This document shows positions 44 through 28,100 of a DNA stretch of 32,000 bases, piece by piece. The stretch's first letter is position 1; each line of letters opens with the position of its first letter. The notes below the pieces were generated by a model. The model did no database searches and was not told where the DNA came from. It saw nothing but the letters and a program-made list of their open reading frames with translations. Location: the NCBI GenBank assembly GCA_037441475.1, contig JBBISB010000001.1, positions 126,418 to 158,417 of the forward strand, read 5' to 3'. Position numbers and translations under genes: made by a program. The DNA comes from Candidatus Iainarchaeum sp. GTDB taxonomy: Archaea > Iainarchaeota > Iainarchaeia > Iainarchaeales > CSSED10-239.

Positions 44-406
44 TCATCTACCAGGAGGTCTTCCACCCATTTTTTTCACCAATTGGTTTCTAGCAGCATG
101 TTCTGTAGCTCCAGGAGTACCATTAGTTTCCATCTTCTTACCCATCATCTCTTCAGCAGAACCACCAGCACTTATGAAGAAGAAATCAACAAAGATACCA
201 GCTACACCTACTGATAAAAGAATATAGAAGATATAACCTACTTTAAAGACAGGCCAGAATAAAAAGACCATAACAATTACAGTTACACTTATTAAGACTA
301 AGGCAAAGGTATTATGTGTAACCCTTCTTCTAATAAAGGCTATGATTGTAAGTATTAAAAATAACTGCAAAATAAAATCAAAGTCTTGTAAAATATTTAA
401 ATACAT
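44..406 (-). CDS. small integral membrane protein (120 aa), about 3 predicted TM helices and a basic Gly/Pro-rich C-terminal tail; function unknown
   Basis: ORF with ATG at 404-406 and TGA stop at 44-46. AAGGTT Shine-Dalgarno-like motif lies 7 nt upstream. Hydrophobic stretches: LQLFLILTIIAFI, FALVLISVTVIVMVFLFWPVF, GYIFYILLSVGVAGIFVDFFFI. Last gene of the co-directional array. No family recognised. Confidence 0.55.
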   Translation of the reverse strand: MYLNILQDFDFILQLFLILTIIAFIRRRVTHNTFALVLISVTVIVMVFLFWPVFKVGYIFYILLSVGVAGIFVDFFFISAGGSAEEMMGKKMETNGTPGATEHAARNQLVKKMGGRPPGR

Positions 407-453: not shown

Positions 454-3400
454 TTAAGGATTTGATGTTGTTGGACAATTGTAAGTAAGGGAAGATATAT
501 TATCTAAAATACCTTCATTTTCGGATACTGTGAAATTTACTTTACTATCAATCCACTTAATATATGTTCTACTTGGAGATTTATAAATACATGCTTTTTC
601 TTGTTTTATATACTCAAATAAATCTTCGACTGTTCTAAGGTTTTCTAAATTATTACCAACCTCATGATCAGAACTTGAAAATAAAATATTTGAAGTTTGA
701 TTAACTCCTGAAGGATTTCCTTTTGTAAACACTTTTGTGTTAGGGTTATTATTAAGTTCATTTATTTTAAAATACATTGAAGAAATATTAAGTGCTGTTG
801 GAAGATATAACATTGTGTTAATATCTATGTTACTATCTAAAACATTCTTTGTATCTAAAATATATCTTGTTTCTTCTATTCCACTATAACGCATATCCTT
901 ATAGATTTTATCCTCTTTATACCATGTTAAAAAGCTATGTCCAATAACACTATTAAGTGAAGACTCATTATCTAAAAGAGAATATGAAAAATTATTATCC
1001 TTAAGACATGCAAGATGTGAAAAGATTGGTATAGGATAAGATGGAGTGTATGTCATCTGTATGTAATCATCAGGAAGAGATTCAAGGAATAATATTTTAC
1101 CTTCAGATTTAATTGTATTTCTTAAACCTGTTAAGGAATTATTATTAATTAATTTAAGTTCTTTAATAGGAGAGTTTACATTTGTATAATTGATGTTTAC
1201 ATCTTTGTTTAAAATAACAGAATCTTCACTAATTACCTTCACACCATAACCATTTCTTGTACCATCTTTATTTAAATTACCATTAAACGGCATATAATGG
1301 AAGACATTAAGCTCTGTTGATGGAAGATCTAATTCCTTTATTAGATTTATGTGTATGAGCTGATCTGAAATTGTTCCTTTGTAAGCAGTATTATTTGTAT
1401 TACCATAAACCATAACTTTGTAAATACCAGGAGTGTATACTTTTAAGTTAGGGTCATTATTAATAACTATCTTAAATTTACCTTGATTTACAGCTGCTAC
1501 AGAAAAGATATCTGTATGTGGCTTATCATATGCATTGTATATTGTAGTAGGATGACCAATAAAGTCTTTTAAAAGATCATCAGAGATACCATCATTCATT
1601 AATTTGATATAGAAGGCTTCAGTTACACCATTTTCTATCTTATTGAATATTGAAAGAAGCATTTGAAGAGAATCACATGCATATTTACTACTCATATTAT
1701 TAGAAGAATCACCTATACATTTAGTCTTCCAAGATCCTGAATCTAAGGCCTTTTCACCCCAGTTAAAGAAAACCTTTGGAAGATTTGCTTCTCCTGTATA
1801 ACAAGACTCTTTCTGAGCTTGACAATAACCTAAAATAAAAATATCACTACCTATTTCTTGACCACCAACACCTAAACAATAATCAAAGGTGATATCTCTC
1901 TCTGTTTCATCAAGAGCTACCTTTGTAATTGTATAAGCTAAGGGCCTAGATTTATTAAAATCAGGAACAGCATTATTTAAAATCTTAAAATTAAAAAATG
2001 TATTTGTGTTTCCTGTAGTTGTATCTTCAGTTAATGAAGAAAAATTATAATAGTAATTAATATTTCTATTAAAAGCTTCTTTTGTAAGGTTAAGAGTAGA
2101 AGATAAATTATTAACATTTATATTTTGATCTTCTGGAACTAAAGTTAAAGAGGTTAGAAGAGTGATGTCATAGTTATCTGTATTCTTTTTAAAAGAATAT
2201 TTTTTATTTTCACTACAATCACTTAAAGTACAGTATATTAAAATATTATTATCTATAGAAAAAACATCTACTAGGGAAGAAGAATCAAATACCTTTAAAT
2301 TAACTTCTTCTGTAAAAGAAACTTCCTTTCCAGAAAGTAAGAAATTAAAGGTTAAAATAATGTTTCCTTGAGAAGGATAATTTCCTGAATAAGTATCATT
2401 AAATTTAAAAACAATAGGAATTACTTTACCAGAAGTAGATAAACTTTGATTTACTGAAGATGCAAGAGAGTTATTAAAGATTGATGAATCTATAAATGAA
2501 GGAAGAGCACTTGAGGTAATATTCTTTAAAACAGCAGAGGAGGATGAAGAAAAGTTATAATCAATACTTATGTTTGGATTAAGATCCTTTATAATCTCAA
2601 CAGTAAAAGTATTTTCATCCTTAAAGACACCTTTCTTAGGTGTTGGGTAAGATAAAGTGTAATTAATATTTCCGAGATTATTAACAGCAATAATAGTATT
2701 TGCATCTAACAAATATTGAAGAGAACCACCAATCTTTAAAATATTTCTATAACTATTGTTAAATATGCCAGACTGATTAACATCTTGGTTTAATATCAAA
2801 GAAGTAATCACTTTAGTTTGATTTAAAGTAATAGGCTTTGGAATATTGTTATTTAAAGACATGTTTGACTTAATTAAAGAATTATTAAAAATACTTGAAG
2901 AACCAGTAAAAGATAAATCCTCTAAATTTCCTGAAATATTTGTAGATTTAACAATAGTGTAATCTGTTTTATTAATATCACTAAAGACAACTTTATTGGT
3001 TAAAATATAATAGTTTGCAGAAGCATTTATTGAATCTTCTAAAATATTATACCCAGAGAATATCTTTTTAACTCTTGAAACTGTATTTCCTACAAATCCA
3101 AACTCAGGAGAAAATATAAAATAAAAATTAACGTTTTTATCAATATCTACAATATCAGCATAGATATTTTGATTTACTAAAACACCCTGAGCATTTGTTG
3201 AACCTAAAGGAATAAGTTCAGAACCAAATTTTTGGTATTTAACAATAACATCTGAAACTGGAGAGCCATAGTTATCAAGAACCTTAAAAGAAACATTATT
3301 TTCTCCTATTATTAATTGATCATTAAAAACATCTGTTGTAATTTCAAAAACAAAATTAACATCTGAATAATAGGAATAAACATTTGTATTTATGGTTGGA

Positions 3401-9326: not shown

Positions 9327-9704
9327 TTAATCAATTCTAAATAAAACATTTATATTTTTATTAGGGTTATCAACAGTGTTATAAAGTACATAATACCTAC
9401 CCATACCAGGCTCTCTTCTTAATTGTCTTGCAGAACCATCTACAGGTAACCTTAAGATTAAAAGATTATTATTTCTAACTGAAGGATTTAAGACGGATAT
9501 TGATTGAAATTGATATCCAATTAATTGTGAAAAGCTACCTTGTGAAAGCGAAGAAGGTAAGACAGGAGTAATAACATCTCCAGAGTCCCCCTTAATAACC
9601 CCAAAAACAAAAGGAGCAACATAAATATTTGTATCATAATCAACTGCAGAAATGAATGGAGAGAATAATAATAATGCGAAAAATAAATATAGATATCCCT
9701 TCAT
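9327..9704 (-). CDS. small secreted protein (125 aa), function unknown
   Basis: ORF with ATG at 9702-9704 and TAA stop. AAGGTTA motif lies 6 nt upstream. N-terminal signal peptide (YLYLFFALLLFSPFISA|VDY). Follows the only intergenic gap large enough (70 nt) for an internal promoter. Confidence 0.65.
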   Translation of the reverse strand: MKGYLYLFFALLLFSPFISAVDYDTNIYVAPFVFGVIKGDSGDVITPVLPSSLSQGSFSQLIGYQFQSISVLNPSVRNNNLLILRLPVDGSARQLRREPGMGRYYVLYNTVDNPNKNINVLFRID

Positions 9705-9774: not shown

Positions 9775-12700
9775 TTAACTACATTTTAAAGAATCTTGAG
9801 GAGAATCTATAAACTTTTGAGAGAATATCTCTGTTTGGTTATAAAAGAACTCAGAGGAAGAACCATCAGAGGAGTTAACCACACATACTTTGTTCTCTCT
9901 AATCATATTAAAGACGTCAGCGATAGAGGAAACAGCAAGATTACCCTCTCCTAAAGAAACACTAGAAGAATAACTAGTACCATTAGTTGAAAATCTAACA
10001 TTTACGCCTTGACTAGTTCTATTTTCAAGAGAGTATGTCTGCTTTTCAGGAGCATAAAAGATTGTTCTTAAATAGATCTTTCCTGTTCTATTAATCTGTG
10101 GCCAATCTATAAGGAAGGCAAAGGTTGCTCCTTCTGCGCCTGCATATCTATCATTATAACTCATGTTATATATGCTATTACCAGAAAAGTCACAACCTGA
10201 ACCTACGCCTGTCCATCTTAGAAGAGAGGTTAAAGATATAGCATTATCTGAACTATCTTTTAACCTATAGTAGACATTCAAAGGAGTGTTATTTCCTTTA
10301 TCTATACTCATTAAAAGAGGTATTGGAGAGCTTGGTGTTAAAAGAAGATCAATATTATTATACTGATCGTACTTAAGGCTTAATAAATTACCTCTTGTCT
10401 CTATATTTGAATTAATCTTTGAAAGATCATTTGATTTTGTAATATTTATGTTCTTTAAAGCATTTGAACCATAATCAGAGTCTGTTACAGTATAGTCATT
10501 ATCAATTCTTATGGAGTCTCCTGTGTATGAAACACCATACCCTTGTCTATTATACCCTGAGTTTGTTTTTCCAACAAAACCATTAAATGGCATTCTATAG
10601 AAGATACTGTCTGTTTCAGGAGAAGAGATAAACCTTAAAGTAACAAAGGCATTAACATCAACATCATTTCCTTCTTTAAATTTCCAAGAAGCATTATCAA
10701 ATAAGAAATCTATTCTTACTTTATATTTTCCAGGAACATTTATATTAACATTGTTTACTTCATTTGAATATTCTTTAACAAACTTTAAATTATTTTTAAA
10801 AAGTAAAGATAAATAATCATTTGAATATACTGTAGGAGATGCCATTATAGCATAGTTACCTGTACCTGTTCCATCTTTTTTAGATGCAAGTCCACCGTAA
10901 GCTATATCAAAGTCTTTTATAAAACTTTCATTGTATTTATCAGTTATTAAGTATGCATCAAACTCTAAGATATTTTTAAGCTTTATAATATCTTCTTCAG
11001 GCCAACCTGAACCAACAACATTATCAGGGTACATTTGTTTATTAAGCCACATATCTAAATAACTTGTTCCATCATACCTTGCGGTTGTTGCAGGGACAAG
11101 ACATTCTGATGTATTTGTATATTCATAGACAGATAAAGATAACAGAGAATTAAACACACTATGTTGTATAAAATTATTTGAAGAATTATAAACAATGTTT
11201 AAAGAAAGATTATCAGCAATTATTACTGGATTATTTTCAAAGTGATATAGGATTGCTGTAATATCATTATCAACAATTATTATTGGAATAGTCTCTTTAA
11301 TTTCAGAAACCGCTTTGAAAGATCCTAAACTTTCATCAAATATTTCTATTTTTTTAGGAGTATAGTTTGAAAGCTTTAATGATAAGGTACCGTTATCAAC
11401 AACACTATTTCTGTTTTCAAGAGTAACTTTAATTATTAAAGAGTTATTTTCAGTATTTATTCTTACTGAGTTTATACCTGATCTATTTACAGGAATCTCA
11501 TTATCTAATCTTGAAGGCTCTGCAGAAACAACATACCCCCCATTTTTATTTTTGTTATCTATTTGAGAATAACTTATAGGACATTGAACTGTTTTTAAAG
11601 AAATTAATTTTTCAGCTTCATTTATTCTGTTTAAAACAACCTGTGATAATTGTGTAGCATCACAGTATGTTTCACTACATTTAGTAGTATCTTGTAAATT
11701 CCATTTCCAATCAAGAGAGATGTTTGGAACAGCACCCTCTCCTGTCTTTCCTGATCTTCCGGTATCAGTAACACAATCTTGTAAATTAAGATCATAGTTA
11801 GGAGTTTCTTCTGGTTTTGTTAAAAAGAAACCTACTCTGTATTTTCCAAAGTCATCTGAAAATATATGGTTGTCAGAAGAACTATTTTCATTTAATGTAG
11901 GAACAATTGTATTTTCTTTAAAGAAATATTTTCTAGAATCATTATGAACCTGAGAATATAAGGCATCATCTAAGGTGTATTTTAAAGCCTTAATACCTGC
12001 TTGCTCAGGCCATACTTCTTTATTGTTTTTACAAACAAGATAAGCATTATGTTTTAAATTAACTTCATTTCTAGGATACCCTCCTTGACAAGAAATATTA
12101 AATTTATAAGTACCTTCTTCTTCTACAAACACATAATACATTGAACAACCATCATACTTATCAAAGTTGTTTGTTATTGAAACAAACTCTTGATTTGAAG
12201 GGCATTTATTTATTATGTTTGTAAATGTTTTTTTCTTAATTAATTTTCCTTTAACATTTAATTCTGATTTATAGTAATTGATGTTTTTAAGACCAGTTAA
12301 GTCAACAACTGATAAACTTAAATTTTCTGAACTAAGATTATTTAAAGTAATTTCTTTATATTCTGTAGAAAAATAAGATAAATTAAAGTCAGTAGTTAAA
12401 AAATCTTGTTCAACATCATAAATATTTGTAAAAGTTGGAGCTAATGCAGCTATAGCTAATAATGCCCCTCCTCCAATCCAACCCCATACAGGAACTACTA
12501 ATAAAGCACCAACAATACCAATCTCTGCAAGTATAGATGATGCAATTATGCCTATTGATACCCCACTTGTTGCCCATAAAAGAGGATCTGTGCCCTTACT
12601 TGAAGATAATTCATCAAAAGGAATAAAATTAATATTTCTTTGATATGGGTTGTAGTCTTTATTAAAATTTGTAATTGTGAAATCACTTTGACTTTGGTTT

Positions 12701-17072: not shown

Positions 17073-19967
17073 TTAATTAACAATACATGCTCCTCTTGCA
17101 TTTATCCAGCTATTTTGAGAATCTGAAGATAAATCATTACTGAATAATGGTTCTGATACTGCAATTGGGTTGTAATATACTTTTAAGTTGTTTGCACTAT
17201 AATCAATACATGCTTTCTTATCTTTTACAAGAGCAAAGATTTCTGATACAAACTTAATATCATTTCCTAAAATATTCTTAAGTTCAACTGTCTTTGATCC
17301 ATTTTTTTCTCTTGTATAGAATAATGCATCATCGTCATAAGCATCTTGGTATAATACACTTACACCATTACCGCTCTTGAAATTACTTGGTGTGTAAAAG
17401 ACTGTTCTTAAATAAACATCTCCTCTTCTTGTGATGTTTCTATTTTCCCATTCAACACCGTATGAAACTCCTTGACTTGATGTTGTTGGTGCAAGTCTTG
17501 AAGATAATGCTGCAATGTCTGGTCTGTAAAGGTATACTTCTTGAACAGAAATACCTGTAAAGTCTAAACAATTTCCAACACCTGTCCATGGAACTAAGCT
17601 TCCAGGAGTACTTGCAGGAGATCCACCTAATGCTTGTGGTGCACCTATATCAAGCTTATAGAAACTATAAGCATTGTTAGCTTGGTTTGAAACTTTTAAA
17701 ACAACTGGTGTTGCTCTAGAAGGAACAAAAACTAACCTTGGATTTGTTTTTGTACTTGATAAAGAAATGTCTAAAAGCATTCCTCTTGTTGAACTGTTGT
17801 TTATAAAAGAAAAGTCAGTTGCTTCTTTTCCATATTCCTTAACACTTATAGTATTAACTGTATTTGATTGAGTAAAAGGCTCAGTTCTTAAATATTCATT
17901 AGTTTGAAGTTGTGAGATTGTTACAATATCTCCTGTAAAGTCAACACCGTAACCTTGTCTTGCGTTCTCTGAATCAATACCAACAATACCATTAAATGGC
18001 ATGTAGTAAAGAGGAGAATCTCTTTCAGGTGCAAGTTCTCTAGTTAAGATAACTTCAACTTTTCCAGAAACTTCTCCTGTTGTTTTATTAAATAAATTCC
18101 ATTCATCATCAAATGTTACTTTTAATAAAACATTGTATCTTCCAGGTCCTTGAAGCATTAATCTACCAGGCTCTGAATCAAAGGAAGATTTAAATATTAA
18201 GTTATCTGTTGTAAAGTATTTATAGTAGCTATCCTTGTAGTAATCAGGGGCAGCTGTTATTGTGAATCTATAGTATCTATCAAAATCAGCTTTAAAGTCA
18301 TTAGAATAACCATCTTTCATTAAATAAGATCTAAACTCTACTAAAGAAGTATCTATCTTGTTATTCTTTGAATAAAGGTTTATGTTTTGAGATGTTTTTT
18401 CTAAGTTACATAAATCTGAGTTTGGAGTAAATTCATTTATTAAAATATTATCTGCTGTTGTAACCTCTAATGATTTATAAGGCTCTATTAAAGTTAAGAT
18501 AGCTTGTACCTTAAACTTTGTTTCATCATCTAAGATTAAACCAACATTAAACTTTTCAGATCCTGAGAATTTTTTGTTTGTAAAGTCAATAACATTTATT
18601 GTTATAAGTTTAGATGTTTGTAAAACATTGTCTTTGAAAACAATTATGTTAAGGTCACCGTATTTTGGAGTTGCTGCATTCTTATCACTTGAATTAAAGG
18701 ATCCTTTTAAAGTATAATCTACTGTTACAAAGGAAGCTTCATAATTTGAGTTTAATTGAGTTATACCTAAATTATTATTTTCTGAAATTAAGCTTTGAGT
18801 TATACCTGGTGTAGGACATGTAAATGAACCTTTGTTGTTTTGTACAAATGTTTCTATATCTTTTAATTTATTTAAAACTTCAATTGAGAATTGTGTTGCA
18901 TCACAGTAAATTGATTGTTTGTCTTTTTGACCTGTTAAGTCAGCATCACACCAGTTCTTTCTTGAAACACTCATTCCTGAGATTGTTTCTGCGTTGTCTA
19001 TACTGTATGTCCAGTCAAGAGCTATTCTTGGAAGAGCTTCTGTTCCTGTACTTCCTAAAAGAGTAGTACCATCTTCAGCTATACAGTTAACTTGATCAAG
19101 TTCAATTCCTGTAATATCGTCTCTTACATAAGAGTTAAAGATTAATTTAAATGGTTCTAAAACAACTTCTTGTTTTTTATTTTCATCAATTTTGTTTAGA
19201 AGTTTTTTATTTGAACCGTCTAAGTATTTTGAAATTTTAATTTGACTTGCACCTGTAAAGAAAGGTATCAACATTGAATAGCCACCCCAGATATCTTCAA
19301 AATCAAGTTCATAATCTACTTTTCCTGTATATGTTGACTTAGGATATCTTATTACAAAGTTTCTATATTCATATGCATTTTCAATAGTTTTGTTTGTATC
19401 TTCAAATAATATTTCTCTTTTTTGTATGTCTTTAGGTTGATTGTTTGAATCTAAAAGAGTTACTAGTTTTGTTTTTTCTGCAAGTCTGAAAAGAGGTGAG
19501 TTTTTACCATCATCTATTTCAGATAGATTTTTGGTGTTTATAAATCTTGCATCTAAGATGTTTTCATCTGTTAAAAGCATGTTATTTTTAACTATTTTTT
19601 GATCTATTCTATTATCTAAAAGGTAATTATCATATGGCTCAAAATAATCTATTTTATCAGTAGATATATTTACTTTGTCTCTGTCTAAGGCAAAATCAAT
19701 CTCTACTTTTGAAAGTTGAGAAAAGGTATTAATAGCTGAAAAAGCACCTGCTAGGACACCGTGCACAATTGGGTTTAGACCAAAGACTTTGTTTAAAAGT
19801 GTTTCAGCACCAGAAAACAATTGTTCAATAAGTACATTTCCTGCTTGGCTTTTGGCTTCACTAGCTAATTTATTAGCAGAGACAGGCATGCTTACAAATG
19901 AAAGCATAAGTGCCATTATTAAAAAAATTCCTAAAAATTTTATTTTATTATTTTTTATTTTTTCCAT
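17073..19967 (-). CDS. secreted stand-alone copy of the long C-terminal module (964 aa), paralog C
   Basis: 2895-nt ORF with TAA stop. AGGTG motif lies 9 nt upstream. Signal peptide (FLGIFLIMALMLSFVSMPVSA|NK). Motifs: LDWTY, YCDATQFS, GPGRYNV, YYMPFNG..RQGYGV, PWTGVGNCLDFTG, YLRTVFYTP, ACIDYS...GACIVN. Confidence 0.9.
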   Translation of the reverse strand: MEKIKNNKIKFLGIFLIMALMLSFVSMPVSANKLASEAKSQAGNVLIEQLFSGAETLLNKVFGLNPIVHGVLAGAFSAINTFSQLSKVEIDFALDRDKVNISTDKIDYFEPYDNYLLDNRIDQKIVKNNMLLTDENILDARFINTKNLSEIDDGKNSPLFRLAEKTKLVTLLDSNNQPKDIQKREILFEDTNKTIENAYEYRNFVIRYPKSTYTGKVDYELDFEDIWGGYSMLIPFFTGASQIKISKYLDGSNKKLLNKIDENKKQEVVLEPFKLIFNSYVRDDITGIELDQVNCIAEDGTTLLGSTGTEALPRIALDWTYSIDNAETISGMSVSRKNWCDADLTGQKDKQSIYCDATQFSIEVLNKLKDIETFVQNNKGSFTCPTPGITQSLISENNNLGITQLNSNYEASFVTVDYTLKGSFNSSDKNAATPKYGDLNIIVFKDNVLQTSKLITINVIDFTNKKFSGSEKFNVGLILDDETKFKVQAILTLIEPYKSLEVTTADNILINEFTPNSDLCNLEKTSQNINLYSKNNKIDTSLVEFRSYLMKDGYSNDFKADFDRYYRFTITAAPDYYKDSYYKYFTTDNLIFKSSFDSEPGRLMLQGPGRYNVLLKVTFDDEWNLFNKTTGEVSGKVEVILTRELAPERDSPLYYMPFNGIVGIDSENARQGYGVDFTGDIVTISQLQTNEYLRTEPFTQSNTVNTISVKEYGKEATDFSFINNSSTRGMLLDISLSSTKTNPRLVFVPSRATPVVLKVSNQANNAYSFYKLDIGAPQALGGSPASTPGSLVPWTGVGNCLDFTGISVQEVYLYRPDIAALSSRLAPTTSSQGVSYGVEWENRNITRRGDVYLRTVFYTPSNFKSGNGVSVLYQDAYDDDALFYTREKNGSKTVELKNILGNDIKFVSEIFALVKDKKACIDYSANNLKVYYNPIAVSEPLFSNDLSSDSQNSWINARGACIVN
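17076..19874 (-). other. shared C-terminal module, long form, stand-alone (mature 964-aa protein)
   Basis: Collinear with aa 1543-2426 of the 2426-aa ORF by eye alignment. Shared ordered motifs: LDW, YCDATQ, PG.Y.V, MPFNG(x9-10)RQGYGV, WTGVG.C.F.G, YLRT.FY.P, and C(x40-50)C at the C-terminus. Confidence 0.8.
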
Positions 19968-20000: not shown

Positions 20001-23000
20001 TTATTTAATTATTTGTATAGGGATATAACCACTTACATTAAACTCAGATAAGTTTTGAACAAGATATTGTTGTGTACTACCACTTATTCTTAATATTTTT
20101 TTACTTCCTGCTTTTTCACCTAAATAAATTGCAAAATAGCCCATAGCTCCAGAAGAACTTGGGGAAGTGTAACCTATAAAGTCACCAGGAGATAAATTAT
20201 TTTCAGCGTAAGGACTACAGGTTTCATAATTACAAATAAAATTAACAACTGTAATTTTATTTGTTTTTTGAATACCTTCTAATGCAGCTAACTTATTATA
20301 CATTTCAATACCAGAACCATAGTTAGTTAAGTTAGGAGAAGTTCCATTCAAGGAATCTAAATTAATATAATTATTTGTAACACTAGAATCTTCAGTTTCA
20401 GTAGTGGTTGCAGTTCCAGTTCCAGGAGTGGTTGCAGATCCAAGAGTAGTAATTGTAGAAGTGCCTTTTACAGCAGCTTCAAGAGCAGTTGTTGCCTCTT
20501 TTATTTTTTTCTTATCTCCACCAGCAATTGCTGCTTTTAAAGCAGTTGCAGCAGTAATAACATCAGAATCATTATTTCCCTCTACACTTTTTAATAATTT
20601 ATTTGCCTTATCTTCTGCTAAAGCAAATATCTTACCTTGTAAAAAAGCAGAGATAGTTGTAGTGTATATTCCTTCTCTTAAGAAAGCAACAAAGGCCATC
20701 TTCCATTTAGCATTTTCTTTTACAGTAAACTGTCCTGTTATCTCTTGACTATAACAAAGGTTAATAATGTTTGTAACATCGTAAGCTATAGCACTCATAG
20801 AAAGACCAGTACTCTCAGATGTCTCTGATCTATAAAGATCAAACTCATATCTTTCAAGATCTAAACAATAGTCAGTAGGTCTAACATATACCTTAACTCT
20901 TTTTATTAAATCTTCATCTTGTCTTGATTCTTTCATAGCACCGTAAACGTTTAAAACATAAGCACCAGGTGTTGCGCCCATAGATGATACTGTAACAGCT
21001 TGACTTGTACCTGTAGAAGATACCTCAATATCTCCTCTAGGATCAACTATAAGACCAATACAATCATCACATGAAAGTCTGTATACCATGCTTGTAGAGC
21101 ATGCTTTATTTTCAATAGTGAAAGAGTCCCCCATTTGTCCAACATTTAAAGTGTTCTTTGAGAATACAACACAGTCTTTTAAATTTGTAACATCAATCTC
21201 AAAAGCGATTTCAGAAACTATTTCTTGAGATCCATTACCAGTATTGTTAATAGATCTAAATTGTACCTTACCTTTAACAGTTCCTTTCATTCTTCCTATA
21301 GGTTCATACTTTAAAACAACTGGAAGAGATCTATCTCTATCAAAAGTATCAAGTAAATTTCTATAGTTACCATGTGTAAGTTCAACAGATCTATTATCTA
21401 TACTTACTATAAACTTACCTTGTGGATTAGATTCAAATAATACTCTTGCTTCAAGACCATTTGATAAAGGCATGTTTGTTCCTTTTATAGAACATGTGTT
21501 TGCAATTATAAAGTTTGTTTGTACAGGTTTATTTATAGAAACATCTTTCCATAAACCATTTGAAATTGTTAAACAATTTGAATTATCAATCATACCATCA
21601 AAGCCAATATTTACTTTAATAGGAAGTTCTGTTTGCCATTTATTATCTCCACTTGAAAGAACAATGTAAAGTGTTGAAGATAAATTTTGAAGTTCTCTAA
21701 TAGTTTCAGCTCTTGGGTTTAAACTTATTGTTAAAGGTATAACTTTTGAAGCATCTTTGTTGTCAGGTAAACTTGATACTGTATCGTATCCTTTTATAAC
21801 AATTCCAACACTTTCAAGAAGAGAATTATTAATTCTTGCTAAGTCAACAACCTCTAAACCATTTCCTTTAACAACTAACTCTTCAATAGTTAAGTCTATT
21901 GGAAAAATATTATTAATTGTAAAGTTTTCTGTTTTTTGTTTTTCATTAAAGATATTTAATGAATATGCTAAGTTTCTTGGTATTATATTAAATAATCTAT
22001 CAGTAGCTCTAAGCTCTATTAAAGTAGTTTCATACTCTGGAGCAGAAACATAAACATATATAACATCATTTGGACCTTGAGCAGGGATGTTTGAAACATT
22101 TAACTCTCCTGTTGAGTTAGGTATTGCAAGAGGTCCTTTTATTGTATCTTTAAATCTATCTTTAATAGTTACAGTAGCATCTTTAACAGGAACTGAAGAT
22201 TTTGAATCTTTTTGTTTTACTAAAAGATTAAAGTTTTTACCTGAAGGTATAACTTGTGGATCAGCTGTAACAATTAATGTTTTATCAGAAGCAACATCTA
22301 TGAATAATTGATTAATAAATCTTACTCTTTGATCTGATATAAACTTAATAGATAAGTTTCTTGTACCTTTTAATTTAGGAGTGAAAATAATTTCACCAGT
22401 TACCTTTTGTTTAGATAACAATTGTGTTATTGAAATATCAAAAGTGTATGAAGATGGATTATTCTGTGTGAATATCTCTCCATTTGGTTTAATGATCTTA
22501 ATAGTTTTAATATCAAGACCTTCATCAATATTCTCTAAAATGAATCTTGAGGATAAATATCTTGTTTCATTTGAGTTATTGATTAATGTAAAAGTATACT
22601 TATACTCTTTGTTTGGTTTTGCACCAAAACTATCAGTAACATCGTATCTTAAATCTTCTAAAACATCAACCATTGTTGAAGAGAAACAAAACTCTGTAGA
22701 ACAGAAAAGTTCACTTCCCACACCGTATGTTATATGGTCATAAACATCATAATATTCTATTTTATCATTACTTCCTAAATATTGGCTAAATGTTTCATAC
22801 TCTTCATCTTGGTTTAAACCAAAACCAAGATTATATATTTTTAGTTCTTCACCAAAGACAGCTGTATCTTTAACTGAAATTGTTGCTTCTATTTCATAGT
22901 TGTTATAGAAACCAATAGAACCTGTATAATCAATAGGCCATTCCTTTAATGTTGCTTTAGCCCATTTAAAATTTCCTTCAGTTAAGCTATCTTGATCTTT

Positions 23001-25115
23001 AAAGCCTTCACTTTCATGTGGAGGGTTTAAGTTATATTGAGTGTATTTTTGTATACTATCTAAATATGGAACATCTAGATGTTTAATAAATAAAGAATCA
23101 TTTTCAATCATTGAAGTTGAACCTGTTCTTAATAAGAAACCAATATCTTCAAATCTATCATCTCCAGTTCTGTTTTGAGGAACTAAAAGATTATATCTTA
23201 CTTGATAATCCATTCCAGCCTTTAAATTATCTTTAACTTCTAAACCATCTTTAAAGATACCAATAAACTCCATTCTAGGTTTTGATGTAGAACTGTTCTT
23301 TGGATATAAAGTAACTGTTAATTTTTCTTGAGTATCTGCTCTTAAAGGAACAAATCTTGATTGTGTTTTTCCATAAAAGTCATTTAAGTAATCTGTAGCA
23401 ACAACATAATAATCATTACCAGCATCAACAAAGAATTCAATTATTCCTTGTGAGTTTGTAAGATTACTTCTAAGTGGTATTGCAGGAGTAAAGCTGTAGT
23501 AACTATATCTATCGTATAAATCTATTCTTGCATCTGGAACTGGCATGCCATCTTTATCAACAACAGAGACAAGTAAAGAACCTTCTGAAATACCCATTGG
23601 TATTATAATTTCTCCAGAAAGATCTGGAAATTTAACATTAAATTCAAATGATGAAGATTCTCCAGTGACACTTCCCTTAATAGCTTTAGCTATATATCTT
23701 CCTGATGAAATATTTATTGTAGCATTTCCATCATAGTTTGTTACAAATGGTTTATAGTCTGTTAAAAAGCCAGTCTCTGCATCATATAAAACTACTTTTG
23801 CAAACTTAAAGCCTTTTCCATCCCAAGTTGTAACTTTAACTTTTAATGAAGCTAAAGTACCAGGAGTTATTAATGTTAATGGTATTACTATAGGTGTTGA
23901 AGGCATTTCTGCTTTTGCAGTTACGACTTGTCTTTTTATTAAATAACCTTCAGCATCAACAACTACATTATAGTCTTTTATTTCAGGGACAGTGAAAATT
24001 ACATATCCATTATCATCTGAAATTTTTGTTTCAATAGTATTATTTGAAATTGTTTTTAAACTTACTTCAGCATCTTTAACAGCACCAACTATTGGAGCTG
24101 TTACTCTTACATAGACATAACCTTTAACATCTGTTGTAAGTGTTTCTGTTTTAGTTGTATTTTCTGATAAATAATATGGTTTTGATAAAGTTCCGTATAA
24201 AGGAACTGTTCTTTGATCTGAATAGTTTGCTGTATATTCTCCTTTAGAAACTTCTTCGATTGTACATGTTCCGGTAGATATAGTTATACATGAACCAGCA
24301 GAACCGTAGTTGTTTGTTAAAGTTACCTTAATATTTGATAAGCCTTCACCTAAGGAGTTTTTAACATTAAAAACAACCTTAAATTTATCTCCTTCAAAAT
24401 TAAAGTTTGTAGGTATAAGTGCAATTCTTCCTGTTGAGTTTGTAATAGGAATATCATACTGTGAAACATACCCTGTAAAAGATATTGAAGAGATTGCTAA
24501 TCTACATTCAGGGAAAGCATCAACAGTTATTTGACCATTTGAAAAATTCATTGGTGCAGGAGCCATGCTTCCATTTAAACATTTAAAAGCAACTGAACCT
24601 GATCTATCAATAATTTGATTTGTTTCAGAGTTTACTGCATTAAAGGAATAAGTAACTGTAAGAGGTGTTACTTTAGTTGGTTCTAAAGCTAAAGGAATTA
24701 TCTCAAAATTTTCTTTAGATAAAATCTCTGTTGTGAAATTATTATAATTCTCTTCAGAAATATCTATTTTATAAAAGGAATTTTTAGGAACTTTTGATTT
24801 TTCAGTAAGACCATTTTCTGAAGTTTTAAGATATAGGTTACCTTCTGTAGTTGAAACTATTAAAGATATATTTTCAAGCAAAGCACCTGTATCTGCATCC
24901 ATAACCTTAAACTGGATATCAACTCCATCTCTTACTCCACCTGAAGGTAAAAGTAAAAAGATAAGTCCAGAAATTATAATTAAGATTAAAAGAAGAAATA
25001 AAACAAATGAAGGCATAACCTTATCTATCTTATCTGTGATCTTGTAAAGACCAGTTCTTTCAACAAAACTATAGTATCTATCTTCTAGATTGTAATAAAA
25101 CTTTTTAAGTCCCAT
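20001..25115 (-). CDS. giant N-terminally anchored surface protein, paralog B (1704 aa): anchor, beta-sandwich array, Cys-bracketed domains and a unique Ala/Thr-rich tail; lacks the shared C-terminal module
   Basis: 5115-nt ORF with TAA stop. AAGAGGTT motif lies 7 nt upstream. TM at aa 36-56. At least 6 CarboxypepD_reg-like repeats (SLLVSVVDKDGMPVPDARIDLYD; YVYVRVTAPIVGAVKDAEVSL). Central motifs are shared with paralogs (FCSTEFCFSSTMVDVLEDLRYD, IIANTCSIKG, TIENKAC, TPGAYVLN). Confidence 0.9.
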   Translation of the reverse strand: MGLKKFYYNLEDRYYSFVERTGLYKITDKIDKVMPSFVLFLLLILIIISGLIFLLLPSGGVRDGVDIQFKVMDADTGALLENISLIVSTTEGNLYLKTSENGLTEKSKVPKNSFYKIDISEENYNNFTTEILSKENFEIIPLALEPTKVTPLTVTYSFNAVNSETNQIIDRSGSVAFKCLNGSMAPAPMNFSNGQITVDAFPECRLAISSISFTGYVSQYDIPITNSTGRIALIPTNFNFEGDKFKVVFNVKNSLGEGLSNIKVTLTNNYGSAGSCITISTGTCTIEEVSKGEYTANYSDQRTVPLYGTLSKPYYLSENTTKTETLTTDVKGYVYVRVTAPIVGAVKDAEVSLKTISNNTIETKISDDNGYVIFTVPEIKDYNVVVDAEGYLIKRQVVTAKAEMPSTPIVIPLTLITPGTLASLKVKVTTWDGKGFKFAKVVLYDAETGFLTDYKPFVTNYDGNATINISSGRYIAKAIKGSVTGESSSFEFNVKFPDLSGEIIIPMGISEGSLLVSVVDKDGMPVPDARIDLYDRYSYYSFTPAIPLRSNLTNSQGIIEFFVDAGNDYYVVATDYLNDFYGKTQSRFVPLRADTQEKLTVTLYPKNSSTSKPRMEFIGIFKDGLEVKDNLKAGMDYQVRYNLLVPQNRTGDDRFEDIGFLLRTGSTSMIENDSLFIKHLDVPYLDSIQKYTQYNLNPPHESEGFKDQDSLTEGNFKWAKATLKEWPIDYTGSIGFYNNYEIEATISVKDTAVFGEELKIYNLGFGLNQDEEYETFSQYLGSNDKIEYYDVYDHITYGVGSELFCSTEFCFSSTMVDVLEDLRYDVTDSFGAKPNKEYKYTFTLINNSNETRYLSSRFILENIDEGLDIKTIKIIKPNGEIFTQNNPSSYTFDISITQLLSKQKVTGEIIFTPKLKGTRNLSIKFISDQRVRFINQLFIDVASDKTLIVTADPQVIPSGKNFNLLVKQKDSKSSVPVKDATVTIKDRFKDTIKGPLAIPNSTGELNVSNIPAQGPNDVIYVYVSAPEYETTLIELRATDRLFNIIPRNLAYSLNIFNEKQKTENFTINNIFPIDLTIEELVVKGNGLEVVDLARINNSLLESVGIVIKGYDTVSSLPDNKDASKVIPLTISLNPRAETIRELQNLSSTLYIVLSSGDNKWQTELPIKVNIGFDGMIDNSNCLTISNGLWKDVSINKPVQTNFIIANTCSIKGTNMPLSNGLEARVLFESNPQGKFIVSIDNRSVELTHGNYRNLLDTFDRDRSLPVVLKYEPIGRMKGTVKGKVQFRSINNTGNGSQEIVSEIAFEIDVTNLKDCVVFSKNTLNVGQMGDSFTIENKACSTSMVYRLSCDDCIGLIVDPRGDIEVSSTGTSQAVTVSSMGATPGAYVLNVYGAMKESRQDEDLIKRVKVYVRPTDYCLDLERYEFDLYRSETSESTGLSMSAIAYDVTNIINLCYSQEITGQFTVKENAKWKMAFVAFLREGIYTTTISAFLQGKIFALAEDKANKLLKSVEGNNDSDVITAATALKAAIAGGDKKKIKEATTALEAAVKGTSTITTLGSATTPGTGTATTTETEDSSVTNNYINLDSLNGTSPNLTNYGSGIEMYNKLAALEGIQKTNKITVVNFICNYETCSPYAENNLSPGDFIGYTSPSSSGAMGYFAIYLGEKAGSKKILRISGSTQQYLVQNLSEFNVSGYIPIQIIK
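23301..24923 (-). repeat. protein-level tandem array of CarboxypepD_reg/prealbumin-like beta-sandwich repeats (paralog B, aa ~65-605)
   Basis: DIQFKVMDADTGALLENISLIV; FKVVFNVKNSLGEGLSNIKVTL; YVYVRVTAPIVGAVKDAEVSLK..DDNGYVIFTV; LKVKVTTWDGKGFKFAKVVLYD..NYDGNATINI; LLVSVVDKDGMPVPDARIDLYD..NSQGIIEFFV. Boundaries are approximate. Confidence 0.75.
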
Positions 25116-25155: not shown

Positions 25156-28100
25156 TTATTTAAATTTATCAGGATTATGCCATAGTAATAACTCTGGGTT
25201 ATTTCCTGAAATATTGAAACATACATTTCCTGTAGGTATCTCCTTAAAGACATCATTCATTGTATTGTATGTTAATTTTGGTTCTACATTATTCATTACT
25301 AAATTATAGATCATGAAATTATTACTCACTACTGTTTTTGTAAATGCAGTTACATTCTTTGTATCTCCATTATTGATTTGTGGATTTGCATACAAAGCAA
25401 CTTGTAAAGATGTTTTATCTTTAAGTAAGAATAATCTATTCATGTTGTTTAAAACCTTAAGATCAGTGTTATTGTTTGTTTGAACTATCTTAAAGTTATA
25501 TGGTTTATTAAAGTAAAATGGTCTTGAGTCTATGAAAGTATAGTTTGCCATATCCTTAAAGCTAAAGATATATCCATCTTGTATTGTGTCTGTAGATGAA
25601 TAATCTGTAACATTATAAATTCCACTTAAGAAAGGAGCATTATATAATGTATTGCTTTTAGACATAGTATATCTAGGGTTAATTGGCATACTGAATAATA
25701 TGTTTTTATTATATTCATCAGGAAGTGCCCTTACAAGACTTCTTATCTTTATAACAACATTCTTACCAACACCTTGTGAAGCATGTATTAAATAAACACC
25801 TGGTTTTGAAACATTCATAGCTCTTTCATAAGTAAATTCATATGTTTTAACAACAGTACTACTGTTATATGTGTTTAAGATATTAACATTTAATGGATCA
25901 TTAGTTTGTCCAAACTTCTTCAAGCTTGAAGTAAACACTTGTGGAGAAGATCCAAAGTAAACTTCCATGTTTGCGTATACTTCTGCTCTTTGGTTATCAT
26001 TAGAAAATTTATTATGTAAATTATTTAAGAAATACTCAGCAGTGGTGTATTGATAGTCCCCAATTGTAACTACTGCTAAATAATCTCCGCTTGGATTATA
26101 TTCAAGACCCTTTGTCTTAATAATGGTTATTTCTCTTAACTCCTGAGGAATAGAATTAAGTAATTTTACAGCTTCATCAATATAACTTTGAAGAGTCTCT
26201 TTTCCTTGCCTATTAAAGTCTTCACAAACATCTCCGTCACCACAGAAATCAACTTTTATATCTGATCTTTTTATTGTTTGCCAATCTTTTTCAAAGTAGA
26301 TATCTCCAAGTTTTACATATTTTGAAGTATCTTTTAAACTATCTAAACCAACTACCTTCTTTTGTAAATAATCATAGAATTGCTCTTGATCACAGTACAT
26401 GTTATCACAAGAGGTTGCAGTTATCTTTGAAGAATCATACTCAAATAAGATTTTATCAAATCCATAATCGTTGTATGCTTCTAAGCCAGTTTGTCCAAGA
26501 TTTGAAGAAAGGTCAGGAGCTAAACATTTAAGAGCACCAGTAGCTATAGTTTCTCCATCAGCAGTTGGTGTTACAGAACCATCAATACTCCTATCACTTA
26601 CAGCTGTTGAAACACCAATAGAGATATGTGATTCTAATTTTGCTTTTTGATTCTCACTAGATGCCCAAAGCTCAAATACTTTATTAATATTAGAGGTCTG
26701 ACCTTCTTTGAAAAGATCATAAATTGTTATCTTACTATTAACAGCTAAAACATTATTAAATGAATCAACTGGTCTTGTAAAACATAATTTGAAAATATGT
26801 CTTGTTGGTTTTAAAAATCTAATACTTACCTTTAATGGATTATAAGTATCCTTAAGGTAATAAGTACCATTATCATTAATATAAGAGGTATCCTTAATAC
26901 CGTTTAATGGAAAGTCTTTAACATAACCAAAGAAACATCTAGTAACTTCAGTTTCTTGATCCATTCTTTTAAACTTATCAGCAGTCAATTGATTTTCAGG
27001 AACATGTATCATAACAGCTTTATTTTCAGAATCTAAGGTGTAAGTTAACTTAACAGATGTATCAACAAACATCATATCTTCATCAGTTACATTTTCATCA
27101 GTAAACTGTTTTATTAAATCCCAGTTATCCTTATTATCTAAGATAAGCCACTGGAAGTTATCTGTAAGTTGCATACCTACATTATTATAGATTAAAGAGG
27201 ATTGTCCGTGTGGTGGTTGAAGACCAACTTGAAGCACAAACTTTAAGTTAACTGTATCCTCTACATCTATTAATATTTTTCTAAAGGATGAAACTATTCC
27301 TGCTGCTAAAGAATACTGTGAATATTTATTTAGATATTCCTTTGCAGAAACTGTGTTTTTAATCTCTGGATTTCTTCTTAATGCAATTTCCCAATATTCA
27401 ATTGGTTTATTAGTTGTAAGTTCTGTAAAAGTATCCACCTTAATAGGCTGTATCTTACCTTGCATCTCTCCAACAGTTAAGAAAGAAACACCATCAAAAT
27501 CAAGATCCATTAAATCAAGATAACTAACTTCAACTAATCTATAACCATCAGCAAAGCAAGTGTTCATAACTTTTACCATTTGGTATTTAGGGTCAAGTAT
27601 ATTTGAAAAATCTAATTTTTGAGGAGTTACCTGTATACATTTTGAAGGCATAAAGCTTATTGGTAAAGTTACTGAAACAGGCACATTTCCTACAAGTCTA
27701 TAATTTGCTTTATTTACTAAAGATGGCTTAACATTAACAGGTATATTGAAAGTACCCATTGACTCTCCACCTAAGATAGTAGTTTCTTTACTTTCACCAG
27801 GCTCTAAACTAAACTCTGCATCAGAAGTAATTGTTACACCGTAAGATGCATCAAGCTTAATTGTAACACCCTCTAAACAGTTGTTCTTAATATAGAAAGG
27901 TCTTACAGGACAGTTCATGTTGTTTGACATACCCATATTACCATAGTTATCTTGAGGGTAACCTGACATAAAATTATAACTATTATAGTTACCAAAAGTA
28001 TTTTGATACTGTGCTGTTGGGAAGTTATAAGGGTTAACTGTTGATGCTTGAGGACCAGCATAACCAAATTGTCCAACTAAATTGTAATTTGGATTTCTGT

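What the first reader, a model, noticed from the sequence alone, without database searches (positions are those of the whole stretch)
17073..19967. Conserved C-terminal module shared by four proteins, with no family I can name
The 964-aa protein and the C-termini of the 2426-, 2129- and >=2280-aa proteins share an ordered motif set. In order: (L/F)(D/N)W; YCDATQ(L/F)S (CDSLQ and CDQEQ in the divergent copies); PG.Y.V; (Y/H)(Y/R)MPFNG followed 9-10 residues later by (R/T)(Q/N)GYGV; WTGVG.(G)C.F(S/T)G; YLRT(I/V)FY(A/T)P; and a Cys about 40-50 residues before a near-terminal Cys. Even the codons of PFNG are nearly identical in three copies (ccattaaatggcat and ccattaaacggcat on the plus strand). 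The module comes in a long form (about 880 aa) and a short form (about 460-480 aa). The conserved Cys pairs fit an extracellular disulfide-bonded fold. The PFNG..(S/T)..(N/Q)GYGV stretch is faintly like the opening strand of LamG/ConA-like jelly rolls (PF(D/N)G...D.SGNGNHG). That is only a hypothesis.
Basis: seen in the sequence. Interest (0 to 1): 0.75.

Follow-up and report, generated by a model that had tools for sequence, protein, structure and literature searches.

The report
Unnamed head domain of archaeal giant proteins
The 964-residue protein is the detached "head" of a giant cell-surface protein: a roughly 680-residue, eight-cysteine domain that caps hundreds of giant proteins in one phylum of tiny archaea (Iainarchaeota), matches no named family, and has an untested function.

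Summary
The shared module is real, but its copies are not equally complete. p964 (17073-19967, minus strand) and the C-terminus of p2426 are clearly homologous (BLASTP 1e-37; family profile 1e-178 and 5e-146). p2129 carries a short form without an Ig-like insert (9e-23). The fourth protein keeps only the two ends of the module and their four cysteines.

All the giants in the window are paralogs. p1704 plus p964 is a split version of a p2426-like giant.

An exhaustive profile search found 681 protein clusters with the module. In the 154 best hits that carry a near-complete module it lies at the extreme C-terminus, either of 2,200-3,250-aa giants with an N-terminal membrane anchor and Ig repeats, or of about 1,000-aa stand-alone proteins. 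Nearly all sit in tandem arrays in DPANN Iainarchaeota, including Ca. Forterrea, whose five giant proteins were noted in 2018.

Pfam, NCBIfam, PHROGs and PDB sequences give no match. An AlphaFold model is confident (pLDDT 91), yet Foldseek recognises only the CARDB-like Ig insert. The LamG/ConA idea has no support.

The most likely role is an extracellular, disulfide-stabilised contact or assembly head. This is inferred, not shown.

The parts
17073..19967 (-). p964 gene: stand-alone 'head' protein (964 aa)
   Evidence: ORF. There are 15 orthologs of 962-1018 aa at 39-100% identity, each with its own start and signal-like N-terminus.
19872..19967 (-). p964 aa 1-32: Sec-type signal-peptide-like N-terminus (K-rich n-region, hydrophobic core, PVSA)
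   Evidence: Hydropathy segment at aa 7-32. The ortholog consensus is ...LMLSFxSxPVxA. Cleavage is inferred.
19713..19784 (-). p964 aa 62-85: conserved Gly/Ala-rich amphipathic helix (GLNPIVHGVLAGAFSAINTFS). Possible counterpart of the internal hydrophobic segment of fused giants.
   Evidence: P66, G70 and S77 are invariant in orthologs. There are weak hits at the matching position in 5 giants (iE 0.005-1.7, best 0.005). hhalign is not significant.
19128..19712 (-). p964 aa 86-280: beta-rich pre-domain, only partly shared with fused giants
   Evidence: Some giants match the profile from position ~155-200 onward. The AF2 model of this region has low confidence.
18807..19127 (-). Module N-cap, aa 281-387: C295, G305-T307-G308, W319, C340, YC355DATQF, 25-residue helix, C384-P385
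   Evidence: Residues are 87-98% conserved in 143 modules. AF2 pLDDT is >90 with helix 357-381. This is the only part clearly shared by all four window proteins.
18429..18806 (-). Ig-like (CARDB-like) beta-sandwich insert, aa 388-513. It lies between C384 and C520 and is absent from short-form p2129.
   Evidence: Seven strands in the AF2 model. Foldseek hit to CARDB 3idu: prob 1.00, TM(target) 0.53; also GH2 Ig domains. p2129 lacks family-profile positions ~90-280.
17076..18428 (-). Module core and C-cap, aa 514-964: helical DGYSxDFxxDFD segment, PGxYxV strand, YYMPFNG-x9-RQGYG loop, WTGxGxC, D817, YLRTxFYTP, C920, NP, C961
   Evidence: G609, Y654, P657, R670, Y673, W794 and D817 are 100% conserved. 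AF2 pLDDT is ~90-98. Foldseek finds no PDB or BFVD match.
9778..11844 (-). p2426 aa 1738-2426: full long-form module at the C-terminus of a 2426-aa giant
   Evidence: BLASTP 1e-37. Family profile 4.6e-146, hmm 10-684.
12439..12582 (-). p2426 aa 1492-1539: internal Gly/Ala-rich hydrophobic segment, ~200 aa upstream of the module
   Evidence: Hydropathy. A similar segment lies 120-280 aa upstream of the module in 49 of 102 giants.
457..1827 (-). p2129 aa 1673-2129: short-form module (no Ig insert, no C384/C520 pair)
   Evidence: Family profile 8.6e-23: hmm 33-90 maps to aa 1673-1737 and hmm 280-690 maps to aa 1744-2123. tblastn to many loci.
25159..26568 (-). p2204 (2321 aa in full) aa 1735-2204: degenerate copy that keeps only the N-cap and C-cap plus the Cys equivalents of C295, C340, C355 and C920
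   Evidence: Cys positions are 1749, 1788, 1793 and 2184.
20001..25115 (-). p1704: headless stalk (N-terminal anchor plus Ig-like repeats) immediately upstream of p964. Together they equal one p2426-like giant.
   Evidence: p1704 aa 337-1438 aligns with p2426 aa 349-1439, E 2e-27. CarboxypepD_reg hit.
44..406 (-). 120-aa three-TM membrane protein that closes the cluster; a conserved neighbour of the giant genes
   Evidence: 91% identical to the Forterrea copy. Homologs follow the last giant gene in 17 other loci. No Pfam hit.

Best explanation
The window is almost entirely a tandem cluster of paralogous giant surface-protein genes from a Forterrea-like member of the DPANN phylum Iainarchaeota (Diapherotrites).

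Each giant has four parts. First comes a short conserved cytoplasmic N-terminus with one transmembrane anchor. Next is a 1,400-2,000-aa stalk of Ig-like / carboxypeptidase-regulatory-like domains. About half of the giants then carry a Gly/Ala-rich hydrophobic segment. All end in the ~680-aa C-terminal module.

The module has five elements. They are a cysteine-bearing N-cap that starts a 25-residue helix, an optional CARDB-like Ig insert, a short helical acidic segment (DGYSxDFxxDFD), a beta-rich core carrying invariant Tyr/Arg/Trp/Asp residues, and a C-cap. N-cap and C-cap always occur together.

p964 is this head encoded as its own secreted protein. A gene fission separated it from its stalk, p1704.

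Shown: the homology, the architecture, the C-terminal position, the phylum-wide tandem organisation, and a confident predicted fold with no detectable known relative.

Inferred: the head is extracellular and disulfide-stabilised. It sits at the membrane-distal end of the stalk. There it makes the specific contact, with another cell's envelope glycan or protein or with the heads of the neighbouring paralogs, that these metabolically dependent archaea need for cell-cell interaction.
For: Homology and collinearity are shown.

Whole-length paralogy and the p1704+p964 split are shown. p964's head scores higher against heads of fused 2,392-3,014-aa giants from other genomes (219-237 bits) than against its own paralog p2426 (140 bits).

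Family size and position: 681 clusters at E<=1e-3 and 394 at E<=1e-30. In 154 proteins with a near-complete module, the tail after it is at most 45 aa.

Taxonomy and tandem arrays: 47 genome loci, nearly all Iainarchaeota/Diapherotrites or unclassified-archaeon MAGs, including the complete Ca. Forterrea genome. Most loci that are not truncated carry 2-3 module genes on one strand.

Anchors: an N-terminal TM segment in 96 of 102 giants.

Extracellular inference: eight Cys conserved at 90% or more and the signal-like N-terminus of p964.

Structure: pLDDT 91.2, pTM 0.82. Only the Ig insert matches known structures.

The invariant Y654, R670, Y673, W794 and D817 are the residue types typical of ligand or sugar-binding sites (general knowledge).

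Against: No experiment and no expression data bear on the function.

The head core is not hypervariable. It is 60-76% identical between orthologs, as conserved as the stalk. Two paralog lineages keep their gene order across distant genomes. Both points fit a fixed structural or assembly role at least as well as a host-specific adhesin tip.

In half of the giants, a hydrophobic segment between stalk and head could tether the head to the membrane rather than leave it distal.

Confidence: 0.5

Rival explanations
1. Assembly or lattice module. The heads of the different paralogs bind one another, possibly through inter-chain disulfides, and build a fixed hetero-oligomeric envelope structure (an S-layer-like coat or multi-chain fibre) rather than binding a foreign cell.
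For: Ancient paralog lineages keep a conserved gene order across genomes. The head core is as conserved as the stalk. The cluster is present throughout the phylum. A hydrophobic segment that could tether both ends of the stalk is present in 49 of 102 giants.
Against: There is no match to any S-layer family in Pfam. No oligomer prediction could be run. The degenerate heads (p2204, p2129) would need to retain the interface.
Confidence: 0.2
2. Enzyme head. The beta-rich core is a glycoside hydrolase or lyase-like domain that cuts the envelope polymer of a partner cell.
For: Invariant or near-invariant Asp, Tyr, Arg and Trp residues: D552, D557, D561, Y654, R670, Y673, W794, D802, D817. Low-probability Foldseek hits include carbohydrate-active enzymes.
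Against: Those Foldseek hits are either driven by the Ig domain or have TM 0.13 or below. No conserved Glu, His or Ser nucleophile is present. There is no hit to any catalytic family in Pfam or NCBIfam.
Confidence: 0.1
3. Membrane-insertion or fusion apparatus. The Gly/Ala-rich hydrophobic segment next to the Cys-rich head inserts into a partner cell's membrane, and the head acts as the trigger or scaffold.
For: Gly/Ala-rich segments of 19-59 aa lie 120-280 aa upstream of the head in half of the giants. They are followed by a conserved CHDD..T..L.DYVINL motif. A similar amphipathic helix follows the signal peptide of p964.
Against: Homology between the p964 helix and the giants' segments is not significant. 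The segments could simply be the cell's own membrane anchors. Foldseek finds no similarity to viral fusion proteins. The segment is absent from p2129 and p2204.
Confidence: 0.1
4. One reading: the stretch starting at PFNG opens a LamG/ConA-like jelly-roll lectin domain.
For: The region after MPFNG holds about 13 beta strands over about 240 residues. One BFVD hit is annotated ConA-like (E 9e-4).
Against: That hit has prob 0.28 and TM 0.12-0.16. No LamG/ConA Pfam match appears in 48 members. There is no PDB sequence hit even at E<=10.
Confidence: 0.08
5. The shared motifs are chance or compositional similarity in Asn/Lys/Ile-rich, low-GC proteins.
For: Pairwise BLASTP of p964 against p2129 (E 0.19) and p2204 (E 0.009) is weak. 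The middle motifs in p2204 are unsupported.
Against: Profile E-values range from 1e-23 to 1e-178. The representative search found 681 family clusters. Reciprocal profile hits confirm the p2204 ends.
Confidence: 0.02

Closest known systems
The five giant membrane-anchored proteins of Candidatus Forterrea multitransposorum (Probst and Banfield 2018, PMC5905446)
   Same: It is the same gene cluster in a relative. p964, p2426, p816, p2129 and the 120-aa protein have orthologs at 46-91% identity in CP045477.1. The cell-cell interaction role was already proposed there.
   Different: The passages retrieved from that paper note only size, membrane anchoring and clustering. They do not mention the shared C-terminal module, its long, short and degenerate forms, the stalk/head gene split, or the phylum-wide family.
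Giant repeat adhesins of bacteria (RTX/Bap-type, e.g. LapA, MpIBP) and giant surface proteins of other episymbionts (e.g. SPEARE proteins of Nanohaloarchaeota, PMC6642349)
   Same: The logic is the same: an anchor, a long Ig-like extender and a distinct terminal region. The predicted role in attaching a small cell to a partner is also the same.
   Different: The Pfam scan detected no RTX repeats, T1SS signal, protease or nuclease domains. The anchor is an N-terminal TM helix. The head is an unrelated, unannotated fold.
CARDB / Ig-like beta-sandwich domains (PDB 3idu, Pyrococcus PF1109)
   Same: The insert at p964 aa 388-513 superposes with prob 1.00 and TM(target) 0.53.
   Different: It is only an optional insert, about 18% of the module. 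No Pfam CARDB sequence hit was found. The rest of the module has no match.
LamG / ConA-like lectin jelly rolls
   Same: The core is beta-rich and of similar size. A ligand-binding role is plausible.
   Different: No profile match and no credible structural match were found.

Membership tests
LamG/ConA-like lectin superfamily | Significant profile match to Laminin_G / ConA-like Pfam families | tested here: not met
   No such hit for p964 at E<=0.1 or for any of 48 family members at E<=0.01.
LamG/ConA-like lectin superfamily | Two-sheet curved jelly-roll fold superposable on ConA-like structures | tested here: inconclusive
CARDB/Ig-like beta-sandwich (insert only) | Seven-stranded Ig-like sandwich superposable on CARDB | tested here: met
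   3idu: prob 1.00, rmsd 4.5 A, TM(target) 0.53. Seven strands at module residues 120-233.
CARDB/Ig-like beta-sandwich (insert only) | Pfam CARDB sequence match | tested here: not met
   No CARDB hit.
RTX/Bap-type giant adhesins | RTX nonapeptide repeats or a T1SS C-terminal signal | tested here: not met
   No HemolysinCabind or related Pfam hits in any window protein.
RTX/Bap-type giant adhesins | Long array of Ig-like extender domains | tested here: met
   CarboxypepD_reg, Big_1, SpaA, SdrD_B and bMG3 hits in p2426, p2129, p2204 and p1704.
SPEARE proteins (Nanohaloarchaeota) | Serine protease, adhesion and restriction-endonuclease domains in one giant protein | tested here: not met
   No protease or nuclease Pfam hits.
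Archaeal S-layer proteins | Match to S-layer families (S_layer_N/C, MSTP/DUF1608) | tested here: not met
   No such Pfam or NCBIfam hits.
Archaeal S-layer proteins | Forms a 2-D lattice on the cell | not testable with these tools
   Needs cryo-ET or multimer modelling.
Viral/cellular membrane fusogens (class I-III, fusexins) | Fold match to a fusogen ectodomain | tested here: not met
   No fusogen among the Foldseek PDB or BFVD hits.
Iainarchaeota giant-protein head module (family defined here) | Significant match to the 143-sequence family profile, at the extreme C-terminus, with the conserved Cys set | tested here: met
   p964, p2426 and p2129 meet it. p2204 meets it only for the N-cap and C-cap with 4 of 8 Cys.

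The most novel reading that the evidence does not exclude
The cluster may encode a dedicated host-contact machine. In this reading, the Gly/Ala-rich hydrophobic segment next to the Cys-rich head of a giant fibre inserts into the partner cell's membrane. The previously unseen head fold would act as receptor binder or trigger. This would be a structural basis for the cytoplasmic or membrane bridges inferred for DPANN-host pairs.
Probability: 0.1. Interest if true: 0.85.

Novelty: new variant of a known kind. Interest (0 to 1): 0.45.

Why it matters
DPANN archaea depend on other cells, yet the molecules that make the contact are almost unknown. This cluster takes up about 5% of a ~0.8-Mb genome (PMC5905446) and recurs across Iainarchaeota.

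The head is the defining, best-conserved non-repeat part of these proteins. Public records name family members only by their Ig-like or carboxypeptidase-regulatory domains.

Defining the head gives three things:
- a search model for finding these loci;
- a compact, naturally stand-alone, secreted version (p964) that could be expressed for binding and structural work;
- a candidate new fold.

If the head binds host envelope components, it would be an entry point for identifying the hosts of uncultured Iainarchaeota.

Tried and rejected
- The search for homologous proteins with a mixed alignment returned only the orthologs already known. The word prefilter appears to be swamped in these Asn/Lys-rich proteins. 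The exhaustive representative search was needed.
- The first AF2 run, on full-length p964 with 13 sequences, was poor (pLDDT 57.6) and was not used for fold search.
- The PDB sequence profile search gave zero hits even at E<=10.
- PHROGs and NCBIfam gave only noise.
- Homology between p964's N-terminal 280 aa and the pre-module region of p2426 could not be established (BLAST E 0.14, hhalign E 0.085). It remains a positional suggestion only.
- The identical PFNG codons were considered as a sign of gene conversion. This was rejected, because codon bias explains them.
- The middle of p2204's C-terminal region was tested for hidden collinear similarity with low-stringency hhalign. It found none.
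- Literature searches for DPANN or Iainarchaeota giant surface proteins found only the Forterrea note.
Full report
**Layout of the window.** The window (29% GC) carries six large ORFs, all on the minus strand:
- p2204 at 25156-31770. It runs off the window and is 2321 aa in full.
- p1704 at 20001-25115.
- p964 at 17073-19967. This is the finding.
- p2426 at 9775-17055.
- p816 at 6859-9309.
- p2129 at 454-6843.

Two small ORFs are also present: a 125-aa secreted protein at 9327-9704 and a 120-aa three-TM protein at 44-406. Pfam recognises only Ig-like / carboxypeptidase-regulatory-like domains in the N-terminal two-thirds of the giants. It finds nothing in p964 or in any C-terminal region.

**Check of the observation.**
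- p964 aa 289-921 aligns collinearly with p2426 aa 1755-2392 (24% identity, E 1e-37).
- Pairwise BLAST against p2129 and p2204 is weak (E 0.19 and 0.009), so profiles were used.
- A profile of 15 p964 orthologs hits p2426 at 1.7e-52. It hits p2129 at 8.5e-10 in three collinear pieces, and does not hit p2204.
- A profile built from 143 diverse modules gives p964 1.7e-178, p2426 4.6e-146, p2129 8.6e-23 and p2204 7.4e-7.
- p2129 matches profile positions 33-90 and 280-690. It therefore lacks one internal block.
- p2204 matches only the first ~80 and last ~45 residues of the module. hhalign of a p2204 ortholog profile against the family supports only the N-cap (prob 93%, E 2.6e-7, 57 columns). The middle gets zero confidence.
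- Reciprocally, the p2204-type profile hits true modules in many genomes at exactly those two ends.
- p2204 keeps the equivalents of C295, C340, C355 and C920.

In short, there are three real copies (two long, one short) plus a fourth that keeps only the frame. The near-identical PFNG codons exist but are what codon bias predicts.

**The proteins are paralogs along their whole length.** p1704 aa 337-1438 aligns with p2426 aa 349-1439 (E 2e-27). p2204 aligns with both stalks (E 1e-25 to 1e-28). The N-terminal anchor motif is shared with p2129. Thus p1704 (stalk) followed 33 nt later by p964 (head) is a split version of a p2426-like giant.

The split is a real gene boundary. All 15 orthologs, down to 39% identity, are 962-1018 aa long and have their own Lys-rich / hydrophobic / PVxA N-terminus. 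p964's head is also more similar to the heads of fused 2,392-3,014-aa giants from other genomes (219-237 bits) than to p2426 (140 bits). This points to a fission within the Forterrea-like clade.

**Extent of the family.**
- An exhaustive HMMER search of 1.84 billion representative proteins found 681 clusters at E<=1e-3 and 394 at E<=1e-30.
- In the 154 listed proteins with a near-complete module, at most 45 residues follow it. The module is therefore always C-terminal.
- Hosts are 2,200-3,250-aa giants or ~850-1,100-aa stand-alone or truncated proteins.
- Of 102 giants, 96 have an N-terminal TM segment. 49 also have a Gly/Ala-rich hydrophobic segment 120-280 aa upstream of the module.
- A scan of one genome per GTDB species returned 47 loci. 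Nearly all come from Candidatus Iainarchaeum / Diapherotrites / unclassified-archaeon MAGs, and one is the complete Ca. Forterrea multitransposorum genome (p964 ortholog 74% identical).
- Two bins labelled Falkowbacteria and Thaumarchaeota are short contigs. The Falkowbacteria one also carries the small 120-aa neighbour gene, so misbinning is likely.
- Most loci that are not truncated hold two or three module-bearing genes in tandem on one strand, often preceded by a degenerate copy.
- Two paralog lineages (p964-type upstream, p2426-type downstream) tend to keep that order in several distant genomes.
- Public names for members refer only to their Ig-like or carboxypeptidase-regulatory domains, or say 'hypothetical'.
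[quoted passage not shown] The passages retrieved from it do not mention the shared head.

**Anatomy of the module.**
- Across 143 modules, all eight Cys of p964 (295, 340, 355, 384, 520, 800, 920, 961) are at least 90% conserved.
- G609, Y654, P657, R670, Y673, W794 and D817 are invariant. D356, Q359, D552, D561, N723, R728, D802, Y836 and N933 are at least 90% conserved.
- No Glu, His or Ser is conserved to that degree (S701 reaches 89%).
- An AlphaFold2 model of p964 aa 281-964, built with a 48-sequence alignment, is confident (pLDDT 91.2, pTM 0.82).
- Its secondary structure, in order, is: an N-cap of short strands; a 25-residue helix starting at CDATQF; a seven-stranded sandwich (aa 388-513) between C384 and C520; a helical segment carrying DGYSxDFxxDFD; about 18 strands including PGRYNV, the YYMPFNG...RQGYG loop, WTGVGxC and YLRTVFYTP; and a C-terminal alpha/beta cap with C920 and C961.
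- Presence/absence patterns suggest C384-C520 at the base of the insert, because both are missing in short-form p2129. They also suggest C800-C961, which are co-absent in six members. The other four Cys would form the N-cap/C-cap frame that p2204 alone retains.

**Comparison with known families.**
- Sequence searches gave nothing: Pfam for p964 and for 48 members, NCBIfam, PHROGs, and a PDB sequence profile even at E<=10.
- Foldseek against the PDB and BFVD matched only the Ig insert (CARDB 3idu, prob 1.00, TM(target) 0.53; Ig domains of GH2 enzymes and Brr2). Whole-module TM scores were at most 0.14.
It cannot be formally excluded, because the core is beta-rich and of suitable size.

**Function.** The following are shown: an N-terminal anchor, a long Ig-like stalk, a conserved cysteine-rich C-terminal head, a secreted stand-alone version, and a phylum-wide tandem cluster closed by a highly conserved small membrane protein.

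The most economical inference is an extracellular head at the far end of a surface fibre. Its invariant Tyr/Arg/Trp/Asp surface would make a specific contact.

Two observations temper the classic 'variable adhesin tip' picture. The head core is as conserved between orthologs as the stalk (0.60-0.76 identity, against a dip to 0.33-0.48 around the hydrophobic segment, pre-domain and Ig insert). The paralog lineages are also old and keep their order. Both fit a fixed multi-chain structure in which the heads bind each other. That is the main rival.

A catalytic head and a membrane-inserting apparatus built around the Gly/Ala-rich segment are less likely but not excluded.

**Verdict.** This is a real, sizeable and unannotated domain family with a confident predicted structure and no detectable known relative for its core. 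It sits in a gene cluster already flagged in the literature as probably mediating cell-cell interaction. It is a new variant of a known kind (giant Ig-repeat surface proteins of episymbiotic archaea), not a new kind of system. Interest is moderate: it is useful as a handle on DPANN-host contact and as a candidate new fold, but no mechanism has been tested.

Noticed in passing
window 44-406 (-): A 120-aa three-TM membrane protein lies directly downstream of p2129. It is 91% identical to the Ca. Forterrea copy, although the neighbouring giants are only 53-74% identical. Homologs at 26-32% identity follow the last giant gene in 17 other Iainarchaeota loci. There is no Pfam hit. It may be a dedicated partner (anchor, chaperone or export factor) of the giant proteins.
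   Followed up: partly
window 6859-9309 (-), p816: An 816-aa secreted protein with Cys-rich ends and a central run of Gly-rich GGNGG / GNGGDGG repeats. It has no Pfam match. Orthologs occur only in close relatives, plus a C-terminal match in L037. It sits between two giants.
   Followed up: partly
window 9327-9704 (-): A 125-aa ORF with a signal peptide lies between p2426 and p816. It is conserved (~40% identity) only in the closest relatives (L002/L047, both Ca. Forterrea, and L003). No Pfam match.
   Followed up: partly
window 12439-12582 (-), p2426 aa 1492-1539, and related giants: Gly/Ala-rich hydrophobic segments of 19-59 aa lie between stalk and head in 49 of 102 giants. In many they are followed by a conserved (D/E)xC(H/D)D..T..L.D(Y/F)(V/I)INL motif. 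Their composition resembles glycine-zipper or fusion-peptide segments. Their topology is unknown.
   Followed up: partly
window 20001-20792 (-), p1704 aa 1441-1704: The headless stalk p1704 ends in an Ala/Lys-rich helix, a Thr-rich linker and a small Cys-containing domain that p2426 lacks. This may be the docking site for the separately encoded head p964.
   Followed up: no
L008 2934-12007, L019 2522-9645, L033 12085-18902: In several MAGs, giant genes are broken into overlapping ORFs in different frames at varying positions. These could be assembly frameshifts, pseudogenes or further independent stalk/head splits.
   Followed up: no
window N-termini of p2426, p1704 and p2129 (e.g. 16900-17055, 24950-25115, 6300-6480): The giants share a conserved cytoplasmic motif just before the TM anchor (..YY....G..KI.D.IDK.(F/M)PSF.LFL..). 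p2129 has an extra ~120-aa Lys/Glu-rich cytoplasmic extension before it.
   Followed up: no
L020 (bin labelled Falkowbacteria) and L042 (bin labelled Thaumarchaeota): Two module-bearing contigs are assigned to non-Iainarchaeota bins. L020 also carries the 120-aa neighbour gene typical of the cluster, so misbinning is more likely than horizontal transfer.
   Followed up: partly
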